This document shows positions 1 to 5,725 of a stretch of DNA of 64,000 nt, in pieces (the stretch's first letter is position 1; each line of letters starts with the position of its first letter). The position numbers and the translations under genes were made by a program. The stretch lies in the IMG/VR virus record IMGVR_UViG_3300020171_000728, positions 1-64,000 of that record; one strand, written 5' to 3'. This DNA is from a virus. The notes under the pieces are model-generated. The model was not told the origin of the DNA and did not search any database. It saw only the letters and a list, made by a program, of their open reading frames with translations.

Positions 1-188
1 AGAGAACTGGGACTTAGGCGAATTAATTTCTTAACTATCCCCCGAAAAGGACAGAAGATAATATTAATTATTTTGGAGATTATTATTGAACATCCGAGTT
101 CTGGTTCTCTGTATTCTAAAAAAGACCATAGAGTCAAAAAAATGAAAACTATCAAGTTACAATCTATTTATTTCAGATAAGCCCACTT

Positions 189-677
189 TTGTGGTGGTGC
201 TTTTTATTTTTATATAGATACAATATGACTAGTCAAGAGAAAAATGCTTATTTAGCTGGGATAGTTGATGGAGAGGGCACTATTACTATTTTTAATCATC
301 AACAATATAAAAGAAAAACAAAACAATATAAACCATGTATTTCTATAGCTAATACAGATGAAAATTTAATGATTTATATTTCTAAAAATTATAGTGAAAA
401 ATATCATGTATTACGATATGAAGGTGAAAAAAATAAAACTTGTTATGTTTGGATGATTAGATCTTTAGATAATATACAGAATATTCTTGATAGAATTATG
501 CCATATTTGATTATCAAAAAGCAACATGCTAAAATTCTATATAAATACATAATGACTAGAAAAAAAGTTAGATTATATAATAAAAATGCACCATATTCTG
601 AAATAGAATATAAATGTTATAAAAAAATTAAAAAACTTAATGAACGAAAACATGAACGAAAACGAAAAAATTTATAA
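189..677 (+). CDS. LAGLIDADG-family homing endonuclease (single motif)
   Basis: ORF translation has YLAGIVDGEGTITI (LAGLIDADG signature) near the N-terminus and a basic C-terminus; 162 aa. Confidence 0.55.
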   Translation: MWWCFLFLYRYNMTSQEKNAYLAGIVDGEGTITIFNHQQYKRKTKQYKPCISIANTDENLMIYISKNYSEKYHVLRYEGEKNKTCYVWMIRSLDNIQNILDRIMPYLIIKKQHAKILYKYIMTRKKVRLYNKNAPYSEIEYKCYKKIKKLNERKHERKRKNL

Positions 678-722
678 GTTATTCTATGGTTTGTAGCCAA
701 CAATATTATTAAAAATTATAAG

Positions 723-795
723 GTGGCGAATAGAAAAGATACTTCAATCCATAAAATTGTATTAAAATCTTTTTTTAATTGTTCCCCTTTTAAAT
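723..795 (+). ncRNA. candidate small RNA unit A (Y-RNA-like)
   Basis: Repeat unit starting GGTGGCGAATAG...GATACTTCA and ending in a T-run; non-coding spacing; next to a Ro60/TROVE-like gene. Confidence 0.25.
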
Positions 796-799
796 ATAT

Positions 800-940
800 A
801 AGATGGCGTAGATGGAAAATACTTCAACGGCTCTGGTTATTGTGGGTTCGAATCCTACCTCCCCGATAAACGGGGAGTGGTCTAATTGGCAAAGACACCA
901 GATTATAAGATTTTCATCGTTTGTTCCTCTTTTAAAATAA
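800..940 (+). ncRNA. candidate small RNA unit B with a tRNA-like module (YrlA-like)
   Basis: Contains GTGGGTTCGAATCCTAC (canonical T-arm: 5-bp stem, TTCGAAT loop) followed by a CCCCG-ATAAA-CGGGG hairpin; 5' end is homologous to units A and C. Confidence 0.3.
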
Positions 941-952
941 TTAATTATAAGG

Positions 953-1016
953 TGGCGTAATATGGAGATACTTCATAAAATTGATTTATTTAAGACTCCA
1001 TGTGCTTGTTCCCCTT
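953..1016 (+). ncRNA. candidate small RNA unit C (Y-RNA-like)
   Basis: GGTGGCGTAATATGGAGATACTTCA...TTGTTCCCCTT, homologous to unit A; overlaps the spurious N-terminal extension of the 981..2513 ORF. Confidence 0.25.
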
Positions 1017-1025
1017 AAAAAAATA

Positions 1026-2513
1026 ATGACAAAATTCAATACTCAAAAAAATAAAATAAAAGAAGCATTAAAAAGACCACATGCAATTAAAAACCTTGCG
1101 GGTGGTATCGCTTATAAAATGGATGATGAATTACGACTTTATACTCGTGTTCTTACTTCATTAGTAGGAGAAGATAAATTCTATAAATCAGGAGATAAAA
1201 GTGATAAAGCTATTTTAGTAAATCTTAAAAAAGTTGACCCATTATTTGTTGCTGGATTAGCTGTTTATGCCAGAGAAAAGTTTTATTTAAGAAGTATCCC
1301 TGTTATGTTATTATCTGAATTATCTGAAATAAGTAAAGGGAGTAAATTGGTTGGAAAAGCTATTGAAAGAATAATTCAAAGACCAGATGAATTAACTGAA
1401 ATGTTGGCTTATAGAATTAACAAATATGGAAGAACAATTCCACATCAAATTAAAAAAGGGCTTGCAAGAGCTTTTGGAAAATTTAATGAATATCAATTAG
1501 CAAAATATAATCGAGCAGGAAGTGTTAAATTGAAAGATGTTTTATTTATGGTTCATCCAAAACCAAAAGATAAAGAACAAGATGAATTATGGAAAAGATT
1601 GATTAATGGTGAAATGAAAATTCCAGATACTTGGGAAACTAAAATTTCAGGTAAAGGTTCTACCAAAGAAAACTGGGAAGAAATTCTAAAATCTGGTAAT
1701 ATGGGGATTATGGCAGTAATTCGAAATTTAAGAAATTTTGTAGAAAAAGAAGTAGATTTAAAACCAGCTATTGAATTGTTAACCAACAAAGAAATAATTC
1801 ATAAATCAAAACAATTTCCATTTAGATTCTTTAATGCTTACATGGCTTTAGAAGAAATTAAAGCACCAGCCGAAATTTTAGATGCAGTAACAGATGCTAT
1901 GGAATTTTCAATAGATAATGTTCCTAAATTAGAAGGAAAAACTCTTATTGCAGTTGACGATAGCGGTAGTATGAGTTCTCTTTTATCTAGTAGGGGAACT
2001 GCTGAATATAGACATATTGCTGCTTTATTATGTGCTATCTATCATAAAAAGAATCCTTACGGAACTACAATTGGTAAATATTCAAATGATTGGGAAGTAG
2101 TAACATTAAATTCCAGAGATAGTGTTTTATCTAATATGAGAAAATTATTCGGACGTGGTGGTACTACTAACACTTATAAAGTATTCGATTGGGTGGGTCA
2201 TCAAAAAGAACAATTTGATAGAATTATTCTATTATCTGATATGCAATCTTGGGATGATGAGTATAGGGGGTGGGCTGGGATTGTGGCTGAGGGGAGTGTT
2301 GAGGGTTCTTATATTAAATCAAAACATAGAGGATATGTATATTCAATTGATTTAGCAGGATACGGAACTTCAGATATTGATACGAAAAATCCTAAAATTA
2401 TTAAATTAGCAGGTTGGAATGAAAAAGTATTTAACTATATTCAAAAGAACGAAGAAGATAAAGGTAAAGTAATTGAAGAAATTAGAAATATCGGAAAAGA
2501 TTTAATTGATTAA
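1026..2513 (+). CDS. rsr: Ro60/TROVE-like protein with C-terminal von Willebrand A domain (MIDAS DxSxS)
   Basis: About 495 aa; C-terminal IAVDDSGSMSS is a classic vWA MIDAS motif; size and vWA position match Ro60 (Rsr) orthologues; the adjacent tRNA-like small-RNA array matches the known rsr/Y-RNA arrangement. Start taken as ATG 1026, not the listed 981, which overlaps RNA unit C. Confidence 0.5.
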   Translation: MTKFNTQKNKIKEALKRPHAIKNLAGGIAYKMDDELRLYTRVLTSLVGEDKFYKSGDKSDKAILVNLKKVDPLFVAGLAVYAREKFYLRSIPVMLLSELSEISKGSKLVGKAIERIIQRPDELTEMLAYRINKYGRTIPHQIKKGLARAFGKFNEYQLAKYNRAGSVKLKDVLFMVHPKPKDKEQDELWKRLINGEMKIPDTWETKISGKGSTKENWEEILKSGNMGIMAVIRNLRNFVEKEVDLKPAIELLTNKEIIHKSKQFPFRFFNAYMALEEIKAPAEILDAVTDAMEFSIDNVPKLEGKTLIAVDDSGSMSSLLSSRGTAEYRHIAALLCAIYHKKNPYGTTIGKYSNDWEVVTLNSRDSVLSNMRKLFGRGGTTNTYKVFDWVGHQKEQFDRIILLSDMQSWDDEYRGWAGIVAEGSVEGSYIKSKHRGYVYSIDLAGYGTSDIDTKNPKIIKLAGWNEKVFNYIQKNEEDKGKVIEEIRNIGKDLID

Positions 2514-2518
2514 AATAA

Positions 2519-2588
2519 GCGGGTGGAAGGTATGGTAATCTTATCGGCCTCATAAACCGAATAAATGAGTTCAATTCTCATACCCGCA
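2519..2588 (+). tRNA. tRNA-like gene, anticodon CAT (Met/Ile2-type), non-canonical arms
   Basis: Hand fold: acceptor GCGGGTG/TACCCGC (7 bp, one G-U); T-arm TGAG-TTCAATT-CTCA; anticodon loop with U33, CAT at 34-36, A37; D-arm and the anticodon-stem closing pair are imperfect. Confidence 0.4.
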
Positions 2589-2598
2589 ACATAAAAAT

Positions 2599-3283: not shown

Positions 3284-4105
3284 ATGAAATATTTTTCAGA
3301 TGAAAATTGGCAAAGTGAAGATGGAGATTTTAAGACTGGGAAATTAATTAAACATATTATTATTGGTTTATTCTCTCTGATTATCTTTTTTGGTGCATGG
3401 GGAACAGTTGGTGCTGGACAAAGAGGAATTCTATTGCAATTCGGAGCAGTTAAAGACAAGGTATTTGATGAAGGATTATATTTTAAAATTCCTTTTGTTC
3501 ATAAAGTGCAGATAATGGATGTTAAGATACAAAAAGCCGAAGTTCCAGTTTCTGCCGCATCTAAAGATTTACAGATAGTTACTTCTGTTATCGCTATTAA
3601 CTATCATTTAGTTCCAGAATCGGTTAATAAAGTATGGCAGGATGTCGGTAAGTCATATAAAGAAAGAATTATTGATCCATCAATTCAAGAAACAGTTAAA
3701 GCGACTACGGCTAAATATACAGCAGAAGAATTAATTACGAAACGAGAAATTGTTAAAGAAGATATTAAAAATAATATTTACGAGAGATTAATAACTCGTC
3801 ATATTTTTGTAGATGAATTTAACATTGTTGAATTTGATTTTTCTGCAGCATTTAATGAAGCTATTGAAGCCAAAGTAACTGCCGAACAATTAAAACTTAA
3901 GGCTGATAGAGATTTAGAAAGAATTGAAGTAGAAGCAGAACAAAGAATTGCTGATGCGAGAGGCAAAGCCGAATCTATTAGAATTGAAGCTATAGCTCTT
4001 AGAGAAAATGCACAAGTAGTCGAATTGCGTTGGATCGAGAAATGGAATGGAAATGTTCCTCAATATTGGGGACAAGCTACACCATTTATTGGATTAAGCA
4101 AATAG
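3284..4105 (+). CDS. SPFH/band-7 (prohibitin/HflK-like) membrane protein
   Basis: N-terminal TM helix, then the characteristic SPFH core (GQRGILLQFGAV...) and a coiled-coil E/A/R-rich C-terminus. Confidence 0.6.
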   Translation: MKYFSDENWQSEDGDFKTGKLIKHIIIGLFSLIIFFGAWGTVGAGQRGILLQFGAVKDKVFDEGLYFKIPFVHKVQIMDVKIQKAEVPVSAASKDLQIVTSVIAINYHLVPESVNKVWQDVGKSYKERIIDPSIQETVKATTAKYTAEELITKREIVKEDIKNNIYERLITRHIFVDEFNIVEFDFSAAFNEAIEAKVTAEQLKLKADRDLERIEVEAEQRIADARGKAESIRIEAIALRENAQVVELRWIEKWNGNVPQYWGQATPFIGLSK

Positions 4106-4112
4106 TTAATAA

Positions 4113-4145
4113 GTTTAGAGGGGGTTTCATCGACCCTCTCTAAAC
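4113..4145 (+). other. 12-bp stem-loop (GTTTAGAGGGGG / CCCTCTCTAAAC) between the SPFH and pilin-like genes, no U-tract
   Basis: Near-perfect inverted repeat 8 nt after the SPFH stop and 8 nt before the pilin ATG. Confidence 0.5.
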
Positions 4146-4152
4146 TCACAAG

Positions 4153-4467
4153 ATGAAAAACATAAAACAAAAAGGATTTACTTTGATTGAATTATTAGTA
4201 GTCGTAGCAATGATTGGTATTTTGGCAACAATAGCTTTAGCTTCTTTGAATTCAGCTAGAACAAAAGCAAAATGCGCAAGTGGGGATGAAGAAGCATGTT
4301 CGGTATTTTCACAAGAAGAAATAGATGAACTGACAAATAAAAAAACCAAACCAAAAGATGAAACTAACTTAGATAGAGCAAAAAGAATTTGCCCTGATGG
4401 CATATTAGAATTTACAGGAAATCCAGATGATACTTGGGGATATGATTTTGAGGTAAAATGTAAATAA
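4153..4467 (+). CDS. type IV pilin/pseudopilin-like protein (prepilin-type N-terminal methylation motif)
   Basis: N-terminus KQKGFTLIELLVVVAMIGILA matches the class III signal peptide G|FTLIE plus hydrophobic helix; 104 aa with two Cys pairs. Confidence 0.6.
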   Translation: MKNIKQKGFTLIELLVVVAMIGILATIALASLNSARTKAKCASGDEEACSVFSQEEIDELTNKKTKPKDETNLDRAKRICPDGILEFTGNPDDTWGYDFEVKCK

Positions 4468-4534: not shown

Positions 4535-5725
4535 AGAAAACGCAACGGTCTTTAGCTGTTGCTTTAGAATGGTATTGACTTTCTTTAATAGACACATTAA
4601 AATTATATCAATGAAAGTAATAGAATACAAGTTGTATCCCAACAAAGCCCAATTAAGTAGACTTGAAATCACACTTGAACAAGCTAGGCTTTTGTATAAT
4701 GAGGCTTTGGAACGAAGAATATCAAGCTGGAAAGAAAAACAAGAAAGTCTTAACTATTATGACCAAGCTAAATACTTCAAGGGTAAATATCCAATATCTG
4801 CAATGCTCACCCAATGCGTCTTAAAAAGATTGGACACTACATACCAAAGGTTTTTTAAGAAAAACAGCAACTTCCCAAGATTTAAGTCAAAAGATAGATT
4901 TCGTAGTATAGACATAAGACAGTGGGGATTAAATGCTTCTTTAAAAGAAGGAAAGCTAAGGTATGACAAAATGCTAATCAGAACGTCTAATCATAGGGAA
5001 TTAGAAGGAATACAAAAAACAGGAAGAGTTGTTAAAAGAGCTGATGGTTGGTATCTACAGGTAATTTGTGAAGTAGCCAGTTTACCTTTAAAAAAAGAAA
5101 TAAAAACAGCTATTGGATTAGATATGGGATTAAAATATTTGGTTGCTGATAGCGAAGGAAATACAACTAAAGCCCCTCAAATATTTAGAAAGACAGAAGC
5201 AAAGTTAGCTAAACAACAAAGAATAGTAAGCAGGCGGGTGAAAGGAAGTAGTGGAAGGAAAAAGGCAAAAGAAATTATTGCCAAAACACACCTTAAAATA
5301 TCAAGACAACGAAAAGATTTTTTGCATAAAGTTTCACATAAGTATGCCCAATATGATTTAGTTGCAGTAGAGAAATTAAATATTAGAGGAATGTTAAGAA
5401 ATCATCATTTAGCGAAAAGTATTTCTGACGCAAGTTGGAATATACTTCTACAGCTAATACGCTACAAAGCTGGGAACGCTGGTAGCTATTTTGTAGAAGT
5501 TAATCCAAGATATACAAGTCAGAAATGCAACGGTTGTGGGGCGATTGTTCAAAAATCGCTTAGTATCAGGACTCATATTTGTCCTGAATGTTCTCTGATA
5601 ATAGACAGAGACTACAACGCTTCGTTAAACATTTTAAGGTCAGGTATTGACCTTGGTAGAGAGATGGGATTACCCATTTCGTTGAAACCAGAAGCCACTA
5701 GGTCTTTAGCCTAGTGGTAGTTCAC
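4535..5725 (+). mobile_element. IS200/IS605-family (IS1341-like) element carrying tnpB only
   Basis: TnpB ORF flanked by subterminal hairpins with an identical TCTTTAG loop: GCAACGG-TCTTTAG-CTGTTGC (4542-4562) and CCACTAGG-TCTTTAG-CCTAGTGG (5695-5717); no tnpA. Confidence 0.5.
4611..5714 (+). CDS. tnpB: TnpB (OrfB) RNA-guided nuclease-like transposon protein
   Basis: MKVIEYKLYPNKAQ N-terminus; RuvC-like core (IGLDMGLK); C-terminal zinc finger CNGCG...CPECS; 367 aa from ATG 4611. Confidence 0.75.
   Translation: MKVIEYKLYPNKAQLSRLEITLEQARLLYNEALERRISSWKEKQESLNYYDQAKYFKGKYPISAMLTQCVLKRLDTTYQRFFKKNSNFPRFKSKDRFRSIDIRQWGLNASLKEGKLRYDKMLIRTSNHRELEGIQKTGRVVKRADGWYLQVICEVASLPLKKEIKTAIGLDMGLKYLVADSEGNTTKAPQIFRKTEAKLAKQQRIVSRRVKGSSGRKKAKEIIAKTHLKISRQRKDFLHKVSHKYAQYDLVAVEKLNIRGMLRNHHLAKSISDASWNILLQLIRYKAGNAGSYFVEVNPRYTSQKCNGCGAIVQKSLSIRTHICPECSLIIDRDYNASLNILRSGIDLGREMGLPISLKPEATRSLA

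What the first reader, a model, noticed from the sequence alone, without database searches (positions are those of the whole stretch)
690..2513. Three tandem small-RNA-like units, one with a canonical tRNA T-arm, directly upstream of a Ro60/TROVE-vWA gene: candidate Y-RNA (YrlA-like) locus
Seen: three related units (723-795, 800-940, 953-1016) share 5' GGTGGCG..GATACTTCA and 3' TTGTTCCCCTT. Each is preceded by a TTGTTC-N17-TATAAG promoter-like element. The middle unit contains GTGGG-TTCGAAT-CCTAC (tRNA T-arm) plus a CCCCG/CGGGG hairpin. The adjacent ORF ends in a vWA domain with MIDAS DDSGS and has Ro60-like size. Established: bacterial and some phage Ro60 (rsr) genes are flanked by Y RNAs whose tRNA-like domains are well described. 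Inference: this is an rsr/Y-RNA module with an unusual three-unit array.
Basis: partly seen in the sequence, partly recalled or inferred. Interest (0 to 1): 0.6.

Follow-up and report, generated by a model that had tools for sequence, protein, structure and literature searches.

The report
Phage Ro60 gene with three Y RNAs
A phage carries a Ro60 (RNA quality-control) gene preceded by three small Y-RNA genes, one mimicking tRNA; this is a typical, not unusual, example of an arrangement that is widespread in phages and bacteria but that the Rfam RNA-family library does not detect at its curated threshold.

Summary
Three related units lie at 719-790, 799-932 and 948-1017 (+), directly upstream of a 495-aa TROVE + vWA (Ro60/Rsr) gene at 1026-2513, in a tailed-phage genome. 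Each unit has the same predicted docking helix: NAAGG-U-GG-CG(A/U)A... at the 5' end paired with ...UUG-UU-CC-CCUUN at the 3' end. A second stem follows whose sequence differs between units but stays paired, then an invariant AUACUUC.

- **Unit 2** carries a permuted tRNA-like body (T arm, 7-bp acceptor-like hairpin, D arm). It hits Rfam YrlA at 38 bits, below the gathering score of 69.
- **Units 1 and 3** are short hairpin types. A covariance model built only from unrelated phage loci finds them as the only two hits in the 64 kb.

The same unit design, in arrays of 1-6 units (mostly 2-4), lies next to rsr in dozens of phage contigs and bacterial genomes. Caulobacter phage CcrColossus is one example. 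So a three-unit array is ordinary.

The proposed per-unit TTGTTC-N17-TATAAG promoters are wrong. The spacers are 20, 12 and 19 nt, and both hexamers belong to the covarying RNA helix. The units are probably cut from one precursor that also carries rsr.

Verdict: a new member of a known kind, of moderate interest.

The parts
719..790 (+). Unit 1: short Y-RNA-like hairpin (YrlB-like class). Terminal helix AAGG(720-723)/CCUU(786-789), bulged U, GG/CC, CG/UG. Second stem AGAAAAGA/UCUUUUUU. Invariant AUACUUC. A/U-rich apical loop.
   Evidence: The repeat family and motif counts are, and the fold is. Model R1 scores it 41.1 bits. The leave-out model R2, built without the window, L001 or L002, scores it 36.1 bits, E 4.9e-8.
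799..932 (+). Unit 2: YrlA-like Y RNA. Terminal helix AAGA(800-803)/UCUU(928-931). Second stem GAUGGAAA/UUUUCAUC. AUACUUC. tRNA-like body at 833-901: closing stem CUGG 833-836/CCAG 898-901, T arm 842-858, 7-bp acceptor-like hairpin 859-877, D arm 880-896.
   Evidence: It hits Rfam YrlA RF02553 at 38.4 bits over the whole model 1-114, E 5.5e-7. RNAalifold on 16 tRNA-like units recovers all five helices, with compensatory changes in 23 of 28 pairs. The L001 ortholog shows a C-G to U-A change in the acceptor-like hairpin.
948..1017 (+). Unit 3: short Y-RNA-like hairpin, a paralog of unit 1 (both loops hold CAUAAAAUUG). Terminal helix UAAGG/CCUUA. Second stem UAUGGAG/CUCCAUG.
   Evidence: The repeat family and fold are. 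R1 scores it 50.8 bits and leave-out R2 scores it 48.4 bits, E 1.2e-11. It ends 8 nt before the rsr ATG.
1026..2513 (+). rsr: Ro60 ortholog of 495 aa, with a TROVE/HEAT-repeat ring plus a vWA domain carrying the DDSGS MIDAS motif.
   Evidence: Pfam gives TROVE at 1.9e-24 and vWA_Ro60 at 1.3e-5. The best solved relative is Thermus phage phiLo Ro60 9KOP/9L5Y, E 7e-34 over residues 22-476, and D. radiodurans Rsr 2NVO also matches. The search scored 1301 homologs, and nearly all of the 120 listed carry PF05731.
2518..2590 (+). tRNA-Met(CAT), starting 5 nt after the rsr stop codon. It is probably on the same transcript. It is a neighbour, not a proven part of the system.
   Evidence: ARAGORN finds it and the Rfam tRNA model scores it 37.1 bits. 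rsr/Y arrays lie beside tRNA genes in other phage loci as well.

Best explanation
This is a phage-encoded Ro60 ribonucleoprotein module: three Y RNA genes followed by the gene for the Ro60 protein that binds them.

**Shown**
- All three RNAs share one terminal helix, formed by their 5' and 3' ends. It carries the conserved bases GG-CG(U/A)A(G) on one strand and (C)G-YUUG-UU-CC on the other.
- This is a variant of the GNCGAAN0-1G Rsr-recognition motif of bacterial Y RNAs.
- Above this helix each RNA has a variable but always paired second stem, an invariant (U/A)UACUUC, and then a different apical module.

**Inferred**
1. The terminal helix docks each RNA on the outer face of the Ro60 ring.
2. 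The modules recruit different partners. Unit 2's permuted tRNA-like body (T arm, 7-bp acceptor-like hairpin, D arm) is the YrlA-type module that tethers Ro60 to the host 3'-5' exoribonuclease PNPase and is recognised by tRNA enzymes. Units 1 and 3, with A/U-rich loops, act as alternative adaptors or simply as gates that occupy Ro60.
3. The units have no promoters of their own. They are separated by only 8 and 15 nt, and the last ends 8 nt before the rsr ATG. So they are most likely made as one precursor with rsr, and perhaps with the tRNA-Met, and trimmed to the edges protected by Ro60.
4. During infection the RNPs would redirect host RNA decay or quality control, or blunt an RNA-targeting or nuclease defence, to the phage's benefit.
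For: **Protein identity.** TROVE and vWA domains are present, and the protein is similar over its full length to the solved phage Ro60.

**Phage context.** Portal, prohead protease/capsid, tape-measure-like and tail proteins lie in the same window.

**Unit 2.** It hits Rfam YrlA over the whole model. It shares a covarying structure with 15 other tRNA-like units; 23 of 28 pairs show compensatory changes.

**Terminal helix and second stem, on 45 units from about 30 loci.**
- 93.9% of cells are paired, against 68.5% after shuffling.
- 13 of 17 pairs show double changes.
- The covariation score is 0.698, against 0.193 after shuffling and at most 0.18 when the partners are slid.

**Test free of selection bias.**
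- When the 3' end is chosen by one stem, the other stem pairs at 4.36 of 5 positions with its own partner, against 2.74 with another unit's partner.
- The reverse test gives 5.98 of 7 against 3.89.

**Leave-out model R2.** It finds units 1 and 3 as the only hits in 64 kb.

**Link to Ro60 without using protein information.**
- 27 of 60 viral contigs and 25 of 120 genome contigs found by the RNA pattern alone have a TROVE gene in the fetched flank. Where oriented, the units are mostly upstream of it on the same strand.
- 7 of 12 protein-seeded viral loci have model hits beside rsr.

**Co-transcription.** The gap from the last unit to the rsr start has a median of 34 nt, and 25 of 31 gaps are 40 nt or less.

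**Literature.**
- The GNCGAAN0-1G motif, at least two Y RNAs per species, and M. smegmatis YrlA and YrlB cut from one precursor upstream of rsr (PMC4201824).
- Thermus phage phiLo Ro60 binds two upstream Yrl RNAs and host PNPase in vitro (PMC12135203).
- The Ro60-like gp130 of phage Bas63 counters the ppl defence (PMC11482910).
Against: - There are no expression, end-mapping or binding data. Everything here comes from a metagenomic contig.
- Unit 2 is below Rfam's gathering score (38.4 against 69). None of 20 related loci reaches it either.
- The motif is a variant, GGCGUAG or GGCGAAUAG, and not an exact GNCGAAN0-1G.
- Single-sequence folds are weak in this A/T-rich DNA, with z-scores of -0.98, -2.04 and -2.24.
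- The 45 units in A1 were picked partly for pairing, so the percentage paired is inflated.
- The effector (PNPase or another partner) and the benefit to the phage rest on analogy only.
- The promoter that drives the array was not found.
Confidence: 0.88

Rival explanations
1. The units act mainly in cis, as a structured 5' leader of the rsr mRNA. Ro60 would bind the last unit, which ends 8 nt before an ATG that has no Shine-Dalgarno sequence. By occlusion or by processing it would set its own translation. Free Y RNAs would then be a by-product or absent.
For: Gaps of 8, 8 and 5 nt with no SD are seen in the window, L001 and L002. Across loci the array nearly always abuts rsr on the same strand, with a median gap of 34 nt. 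No internal promoter was found.
Against: - In most other loci a normal SD sits in the gap, so occlusion is not general.
- Some loci have the array downstream of rsr: L036, L053, L059 and L065.
- Characterised bacterial and phage Y RNAs accumulate as, or bind Ro60 as, separate RNAs (PMC4201824, PMC12135203).
- Diverse apical modules, including a complete tRNA mimic, are not needed for a leader.
- This idea is compatible with the main explanation rather than exclusive of it.
Confidence: 0.2
2. These are repeated transcription signals. Each unit would be a promoter (TTGTTC...TATAAG) and/or a terminator copy, not a functional RNA.
For: The hexamers resemble -35 and -10 elements in an A/T-rich spacer. 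Single-sequence fold z-scores are weak.
Against: - The spacers are 20, 12 and 19 nt, and the scan finds no site there.
- TTGTTCC and the bases before GGCG are conserved or covary in G+C-rich phages and in Acidobacteriota, where the flanks are not TATAAG-like.
- AAGG/CCUU changes to AAGA/UCUU within the window itself.
- No terminator-like T tract follows the units.
Confidence: 0.03
3. This is a decayed tRNA gene (unit 2) with two partial duplicates, left over from a phage tRNA cluster and without function.
For: - A tRNA-Met lies 5 nt after rsr.
- rsr loci often sit in tRNA clusters.
- tRNA models pick up parts of related units.
- CcrColossus carries a 'tRNA-Gln' annotation over one unit.
Against: - The arm order is permuted (T arm, closed acceptor-like hairpin, D arm), and this order is conserved with compensatory changes across distant phages.
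- ARAGORN does not call unit 2 a tRNA.
- Units 1 and 3 have no tRNA parts, yet they match a conserved family found beside rsr.
Confidence: 0.03

Closest known systems
Bacterial YrlA/YrlB Y RNAs with Rsr (S. Typhimurium, M. smegmatis; Chen et al. 2014, PMC4201824; Rfam RF02553)
   Same: - They are encoded within a few hundred nt of rsr on the same strand.
- They carry a 5' GNCGAA-type motif.
- One RNA has T, acceptor-like and D stem-loops in permuted order, and one or more further RNAs are plain hairpins.
- M. smegmatis YrlA and YrlB lie upstream of rsr and come from one precursor.
- The conserved YUAY of YrlA corresponds to the UAC of AUACUUC here.
   Different: - The motif here is mostly GGCGUAG.
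- A 7-8-bp variable stem lies between that motif and the UACUUC element.
- The 3' strand CG-YUUGUUCC is strongly conserved.
- There are three units, not two.
- Unit 2 scores only 38 bits against the Rfam model, and units 1 and 3 match no Rfam family.
Thermus phage phiLo Ro60 with Yrl1 and Yrl2 (PMC12135203; PDB 9KOP, 9L5Y)
   Same: - It is a phage-encoded Ro60 and the closest solved relative of this protein (E 7e-34).
- Its Y-like RNAs lie directly upstream of the gene and were identified by a CGAA motif within a 5'-3' stem.
- It binds host PNPase in vitro.
   Different: It has two RNAs, and no tRNA-like domain is mentioned in the paper ('tRNA-like' occurs 0 times in its text). I did not compare its RNA sequences with the units here.
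Caulobacter phage CcrColossus / CcrPW rsr locus (NC_019406; listed among phages with YrlA-like RNAs in PMC4201824 as cited by PMC12135203)
   Same: It has the same unit design. At least 6 units lie in the 1.4-kb gene-free stretch upstream of the 'RNA-binding protein' gp139.
   Different: It is G+C-rich, and its Ro60 is only 31% identical. It has more units. The record annotates none of them as Y RNA and labels part of one unit as tRNA-Gln.
Metazoan Y RNAs (hY1, hY3, hY4, hY5) with Ro60
   Same: Several paralogous small RNAs share a Ro60-binding bulged helix made from their 5' and 3' ends and differ in their loops (from my own knowledge and PMC4201824).
   Different: They are separate Pol III genes with no tRNA-like domain. 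Their helix sequence is GGUCCGA/UUGAC, with the bulge on the 5' strand. Here the UU bulge is on the 3' strand.
Listeria phage CKA15: three highly transcribed regions upstream of an Rsr-like gene (PMC12282133)
   Same: There are three abundant candidate ncRNAs within 2 kb upstream of a phage Rsr homolog and in the same direction.
   Different: Their identity as Y RNAs is only suggested in that paper. I did not compare the sequences.

Membership tests
Ro60/Rsr protein (TROVE family) | TROVE (HEAT-repeat ring) domain, including the N-terminal part | tested here: met
   Pfam PF05731 matches at E 1.9e-24 and 87 bits against a cutoff of 23. phmmer aligns residues 22-476 to residues 22-483 of phage Ro60 9L5Y/9KOP, E 7e-34.
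Ro60/Rsr protein (TROVE family) | C-terminal vWA domain with a MIDAS motif | tested here: met
   Pfam vWA_Ro60 scores 25.6 bits, just under its 27.7 cutoff, E 1.3e-5. The DxSxS motif DDSGS can be read in the translation. The D. radiodurans Rsr 2NVO vWA region aligns.
Ro60/Rsr protein (TROVE family) | Binds Y RNA on the outer surface of the ring | not testable with these tools
   This needs EMSA or RIP with the recombinant protein.
YrlA (Rfam RF02553; Chen et al. 2014), unit 2 | Reaches Rfam's curated gathering score | tested here: not met
   It scores 38.4 bits against 69. It is absent from the gathering-threshold scan and is found only in the E-value scan. None of 20 related loci reaches the score either.
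YrlA (Rfam RF02553; Chen et al. 2014), unit 2 | T, acceptor-like (AS) and D stem-loops in that order, closed by one stem | tested here: met
   All four helices align to the model. RNAalifold recovers the T arm, AS hairpin and D arm with covariation. The T loop is UUCGAAU and the D loop contains GG.
YrlA (Rfam RF02553; Chen et al. 2014), unit 2 | GNCGAAN0-1G motif near the 5' end | tested here: inconclusive
   Unit 2 has GGCGUAG, with one mismatch (U for A). The family consensus here is GGCG(U/A)AG, and GGCG is invariant in all 45 units.
YrlA (Rfam RF02553; Chen et al. 2014), unit 2 | Encoded within 4 kb of a Ro60 ortholog on the same strand | tested here: met
   Unit 2 ends at 932 and rsr starts at 1026 on the same strand.
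YrlA (Rfam RF02553; Chen et al. 2014), unit 2 | tRNA-type modifications, and stability dependent on Rsr | not testable with these tools
   This needs RNA from infected cells.
Y RNA in the general sense (Ro60-bound small RNA), units 1 and 3 | The 5' and 3' ends pair into a helix that carries the conserved Ro60-binding bases | tested here: met
   13 of 17 pairs show compensatory changes, and the covariation score is 0.698 against 0.193 after shuffling. A cross-selection test supports the pairing. Leave-out model R2 scores the units 36 and 48 bits.
Y RNA in the general sense (Ro60-bound small RNA), units 1 and 3 | Matches a curated Y-RNA family (Y_RNA, YrlA or others in Rfam 15) | tested here: not met
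   There is no Rfam hit for 719-790 or 948-1017, even at E up to 10.
Y RNA in the general sense (Ro60-bound small RNA), units 1 and 3 | Physically bound by Ro60 and expressed as a discrete small RNA | not testable with these tools
   No transcriptome exists for this metagenomic phage.

The most novel reading that the evidence does not exclude
Tandem Y-RNA arrays are a general organisation of rsr loci in phages and bacteria that I did not find described as such. On this reading one polycistronic leader yields a set of adaptors. All share one Ro60-docking helix, and each displays a different effector module: short A/U loops, two kinds of tRNA mimic, and ~200-nt inserts in close relatives. One Ro60 could thus be plugged into several host machines. 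In this phage lineage the last unit ends 5-8 nt before a start codon without a Shine-Dalgarno sequence, so Ro60 binding or processing would also set Ro60's own translation. The system as a whole would serve as a counter-defence against RNA- or tRNA-targeting immunity.
Probability: 0.25. Interest if true: 0.6.

Novelty: new member of a known kind. Interest (0 to 1): 0.4.

Why it matters
The result adds a clear phage example of a Ro60/Y-RNA module. More usefully, it exposes a sharply defined Y-RNA core: GGYGGCG(U/A)AG, a stem, UUACUUC, a variable module, the return strand of the stem, then CG-YUUGUUCC.

- Rfam does not capture this core at its curated threshold.
- A simple DNA pattern or a 53-position covariance model recovers it beside rsr in many phages and bacteria.
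- It could therefore be used to annotate Y RNAs systematically.
- It could correct mis-annotations, such as the 'tRNA-Gln' in CcrColossus.
- It could help choose tractable phages for testing what phage Ro60 RNPs do during infection.

The locus itself does not change current understanding.

Tried and rejected
1. **Per-unit sigma-70 promoters.** Rejected on spacing, on the promoter scan, and because the hexamers covary as RNA.
2. **A promoter for the array.**
   - The only strong one is a 12/12 consensus site that lies 188-161 nt before the window start, on the identical contig L078. It is followed by about 350 nt without an ORF, a terminator-like hairpin at window 183-197, and the LAGLIDADG gene.
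   - Its extended motif GGGTTGACA does not recur in the window.
   - A 10/12 site at 552-581, inside the LAGLIDADG ORF, is only a candidate.
3. **LAGLIDADG ORF as part of a group I intron interrupting an RNA gene.** There is no intron hit at E up to 1 in L078 1000-2500 or in window 1-760.
4. **Finding unit 2 with the core models R1 and R2.** Both missed it, even with filters off, because of its ~100-nt insert. The evidence for unit 2 rests on Rfam and on alignment A2.
5. **A target complementary to the shared loop word CATAAAATTG.** It occurs only in the two loops themselves, and two occurrences is not above chance (17 of 100 shuffles reach 2).
6. **RNA-repair partners near rsr (RtcB, ligases).** None was found. 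The neighbours are Band7/SPFH, a pilin-like N_methyl protein, TnpB, a DNA methylase, a sliding clamp and a CHAP domain protein.
7. **The 2020 Annual Review on bacterial Ro60 (PMC10870794).** It is not held, so I cannot exclude that multi-unit arrays are described there.
8. **Single-sequence folding energies.** They are not significant for unit 1 and only marginal for units 2 and 3.
Full report
**What is there**

The first 2.6 kb of the window read as follows:
- a LAGLIDADG homing-endonuclease ORF at 225-677
- three related non-coding units
- a 495-aa ORF at 1026-2513
- a tRNA-Met(CAT) at 2518-2590

The window is part of a tailed-phage genome of about 30% G+C. It encodes a Mu-type portal, a prohead protease/capsid fusion, tape-measure-like and tail proteins, and a sliding clamp.

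The repeats are real. The repeat finder returns a 39-nt 5' family and a 16-nt 3' family, each with three copies. TGGCG-N10-ATACTTCA and TTGTTCCYCTT each occur exactly three times in 64 kb, against 0.06 and 0.13 expected.

**The protein**

- Pfam gives TROVE at E 1.9e-24 and the Ro60 vWA domain at E 1.3e-5.
- The MIDAS-type DDSGS motif is present.
- The best solved relative is the Ro60 of Thermus phage phiLo (9KOP/9L5Y), aligned over residues 22-476 at E 7e-34. D. radiodurans Rsr also matches.
- The start codon is the ATG at 1026. An identical contig calls it, and close relatives begin M(T/A)KFNT.

**Anatomy of the units**

Each unit folds with its two ends paired. Read from the outside inward:
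1. An outer stem, (U)AAGG with CCUU(A).
2. A bulged U.
3. GG paired with CC.
4. A UU bulge on the 3' strand.
5. CG paired with UG.
6. A small internal loop.
7. A 7-8-bp second stem.
8. The invariant AUACUUC.
9. The apical part.

The second stem differs in sequence between the three paralogs but stays paired:
- AGAAAAGA/UCUUUUUU in unit 1
- GAUGGAAA/UUUUCAUC in unit 2
- UAUGGAG/CUCCAUG in unit 3

In unit 2 the outer stem changes from AAGG/CCUU to AAGA/UCUU, a double change inside the window itself.

Unit 2's apical part aligns to the whole Rfam YrlA model at 38.4 bits, E 5.5e-7 in a 501-nt search. It has a closing stem, a T arm with loop UUCGAAU, a 7-bp hairpin in the place of the acceptor stem, and a D arm with GG in its loop. 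That score is below Rfam's gathering score of 69, so the default scan misses it.

Units 1 and 3 have A/U-rich loops of about 28 nt that share CAUAAAAUUG. They match no Rfam family.

**Relatives**

The two closest Ro60 homologs, at 85% and 71% identity, lie on contigs L001 and L002. Five and at least five units of the same design lie upstream of their rsr genes. These include two kinds of tRNA mimic and a ~200-nt unit.

A search of IMG/VR with the RNA pattern alone (GGTGGCGTAG-N6-12-TTACTTC) returned 60 contigs. Of these, 27 have a TROVE gene in the fetched flank, mostly just downstream on the same strand. The same pattern in one-genome-per-species bacterial contigs gave 120 or more hits. Of these, 25 have TROVE nearby and 1-4 motif copies (2-4 in most) on the same strand within 1.5 kb of the gene, mostly upstream, many in Acidobacteriota.

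Conversely, 7 of 12 viral loci fetched by protein similarity have covariance-model hits beside rsr.

Units per locus range from 1 to 6, mostly 2-4. These are lower bounds. The cultured Caulobacter phage CcrColossus has at least 6 units in the 1.4 kb upstream of its rsr gene. One of them is partly annotated as tRNA-Gln.

**Structure tests**

I built 53-nt core constructs from 45 units (alignment A1). On these the proposed structure gives:
- 93.9% of cells paired, against 68.5% after shuffling
- compensatory changes at 13 of 17 pairs, in 207 cells
- a covariation score of 0.698, against 0.193 after shuffling and at most 0.18 for slid partners

Those units were chosen partly for pairing, so I also ran a test in which the 3' end was chosen by one stem only and the other stem was scored. 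Cognate ends pair at 4.36 of 5 positions (outer stem) and 5.98 of 7 (second stem). Non-cognate ends pair at 2.74 and 3.89.

A model built without any sequence from the window, L001 or L002 (R2) finds units 3 and 1 at 48.4 and 36.1 bits. These are the only hits in the window on either strand.

For the tRNA-like class, RNAalifold on 16 units including unit 2 recovers the outer stem, second stem, T arm, acceptor-like hairpin and D arm without guidance. Of its 28 pairs, 23 carry compensatory changes.

The 'TTGTTC-N17-TATAAG promoter' before each unit does not exist as described.
- The spacers are 20, 12 and 19 nt, and the first hexamer before unit 1 is TTGTAG.
- The scan finds no promoter there.
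- TTGTTCC is the conserved 3' strand of the preceding unit's docking helix, and AAG(G/A) is the paired 5' end of the next unit. Both persist in G+C-rich genomes, where the flanks look nothing like TATAAG.

The array is also not unusual in size.

**How it probably works**

The conserved GGCG(U/A)AG is a one-base variant of the GNCGAAN0-1G motif that Chen et al. proposed as the Rsr recognition site. UAC within AUACUUC corresponds to their conserved YUAY. [quoted passage not shown] In M. smegmatis both are cut from one precursor upstream of rsr (PMC4201824).

Several facts make a single precursor the most economical reading (inference):
- The gaps between units here are 8 and 15 nt.
- The last unit ends 8 nt before the ATG.
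- The tRNA starts 5 nt after the stop codon.
- Across 31 loci the gap from the last unit to rsr has a median of 34 nt.

By analogy with the D. radiodurans and Salmonella systems and with phage phiLo, each RNA would dock on Ro60 through the shared helix. The apical module would then recruit a partner, most likely host PNPase for the tRNA-like unit (PMC4201824, PMC12135203). A counter-defence role is possible, since the Ro60-like gp130 of phage Bas63 counters the ppl system (PMC11482910). The identity of the partners and the benefit to the phage are not shown.

**Comparison and novelty**

- The protein is a member of the Ro60 family.
- Unit 2 has every structural feature that defines YrlA. It fails the Rfam score and has a variant motif, so I call it YrlA-like.
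- Units 1 and 3 are Y RNAs in the general, functional sense only.
- Phage Ro60 genes with upstream Y-like RNAs are already known in mycobacteriophages, CcrColossus, Bacillus phage G and phiLo, and three candidates exist in Listeria phage CKA15 (PMC4201824, PMC12135203, PMC12282133).

The locus is therefore a new member of a known kind.

Four points go somewhat beyond what I could find in the papers held:
- how uniform and how widespread the extended core is
- how common 2-6-unit arrays are
- that Rfam misses all of them at its threshold
- that in this lineage the last unit sits 5-8 nt from a start codon with no Shine-Dalgarno sequence

I could not read the 2020 Annual Review, so some of this may already be described.

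**Limits**

- There are no expression or binding data.
- The promoter is unknown.
- Single-sequence folding energies are weak.
- The core models cannot see units with long inserts.

Noticed in passing
window 2518-2590 (+): A tRNA-Met(CAT) starts 5 nt after the rsr stop codon. In other phage loci, rsr/Y arrays also sit inside or beside tRNA gene clusters (L014, L002, L051, L020).
   Followed up: partly
window 225-677 (+): A LAGLIDADG homing-endonuclease ORF lies directly upstream of the Y array. It is absent at this position in the close relatives L001 and L002, so it is probably a recent mobile insertion. No group I intron signal surrounds it.
   Followed up: partly
L078 1273-1668 (= 188 nt before the window start, up to window 207): A perfect sigma-70 consensus promoter (TTGACA-16-TATAAT) is followed by about 350 nt without an ORF. 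The stretch ends at a terminator-like hairpin with a T run at window 183-197. This is a candidate independent non-coding transcript with no convincing Rfam match.
   Followed up: partly
window 4569-5714 (+): A TnpB (IS605 OrfB / Cas12f-like) gene lies 2 kb downstream of rsr. It is also present on the identical contig L078.
   Followed up: no
window 3284-4467 (+); L002 7538-8677: rsr is followed by an SPFH/Band 7 protein and a small protein with a type IV pilin-like N-terminal methylation motif, both here and in the 71%-identical relative. The synteny is conserved and its meaning is unknown.
   Followed up: no
L001 2135-2340; L002 4930-5120; L002 4782-4908: Close relatives carry further unit types with the same docking ends. 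One is a ~200-nt unit with a large insert conserved between L001 and L002. Another has a body that the Rfam tRNA model scores at 51.6 bits over positions 4-67, i.e. a non-permuted tRNA-like core set on the Y stem.
   Followed up: partly
L079 2119-2186 (Caulobacter phage CcrColossus NC_019406, 109217-109284): The annotated 'tRNA-Gln' overlaps the 5' half of a Y-like unit that begins GGGUGGCGUAG. ARAGORN calls no tRNA in this stretch. At least 6 Y-like units fill the 1.4 kb upstream of the rsr gene gp139.
   Followed up: partly
L085, L113, L114, L116, L132, L133, L168-L196 (bacterial genome contigs): The same unit design, in arrays of 2-4 units upstream of rsr, occurs in bacterial chromosomes, notably in Acidobacteriota (for example Granulicella aggregans). 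The design is therefore not specific to phages.
   Followed up: partly
window 1018-1025; L001 2428-2435; L002 5996-6000: Only 5-8 nt and no Shine-Dalgarno sequence separate the last Y unit from the rsr ATG in this lineage. Most other loci have 17-40 nt with a clear AGGAGG.
   Followed up: partly
L002 4630-4770: A ~140-nt G+C-richer stretch (GGGCGAAAGCCCC...) lies between two Y units, lacks the docking motifs and is unexplained.
   Followed up: no
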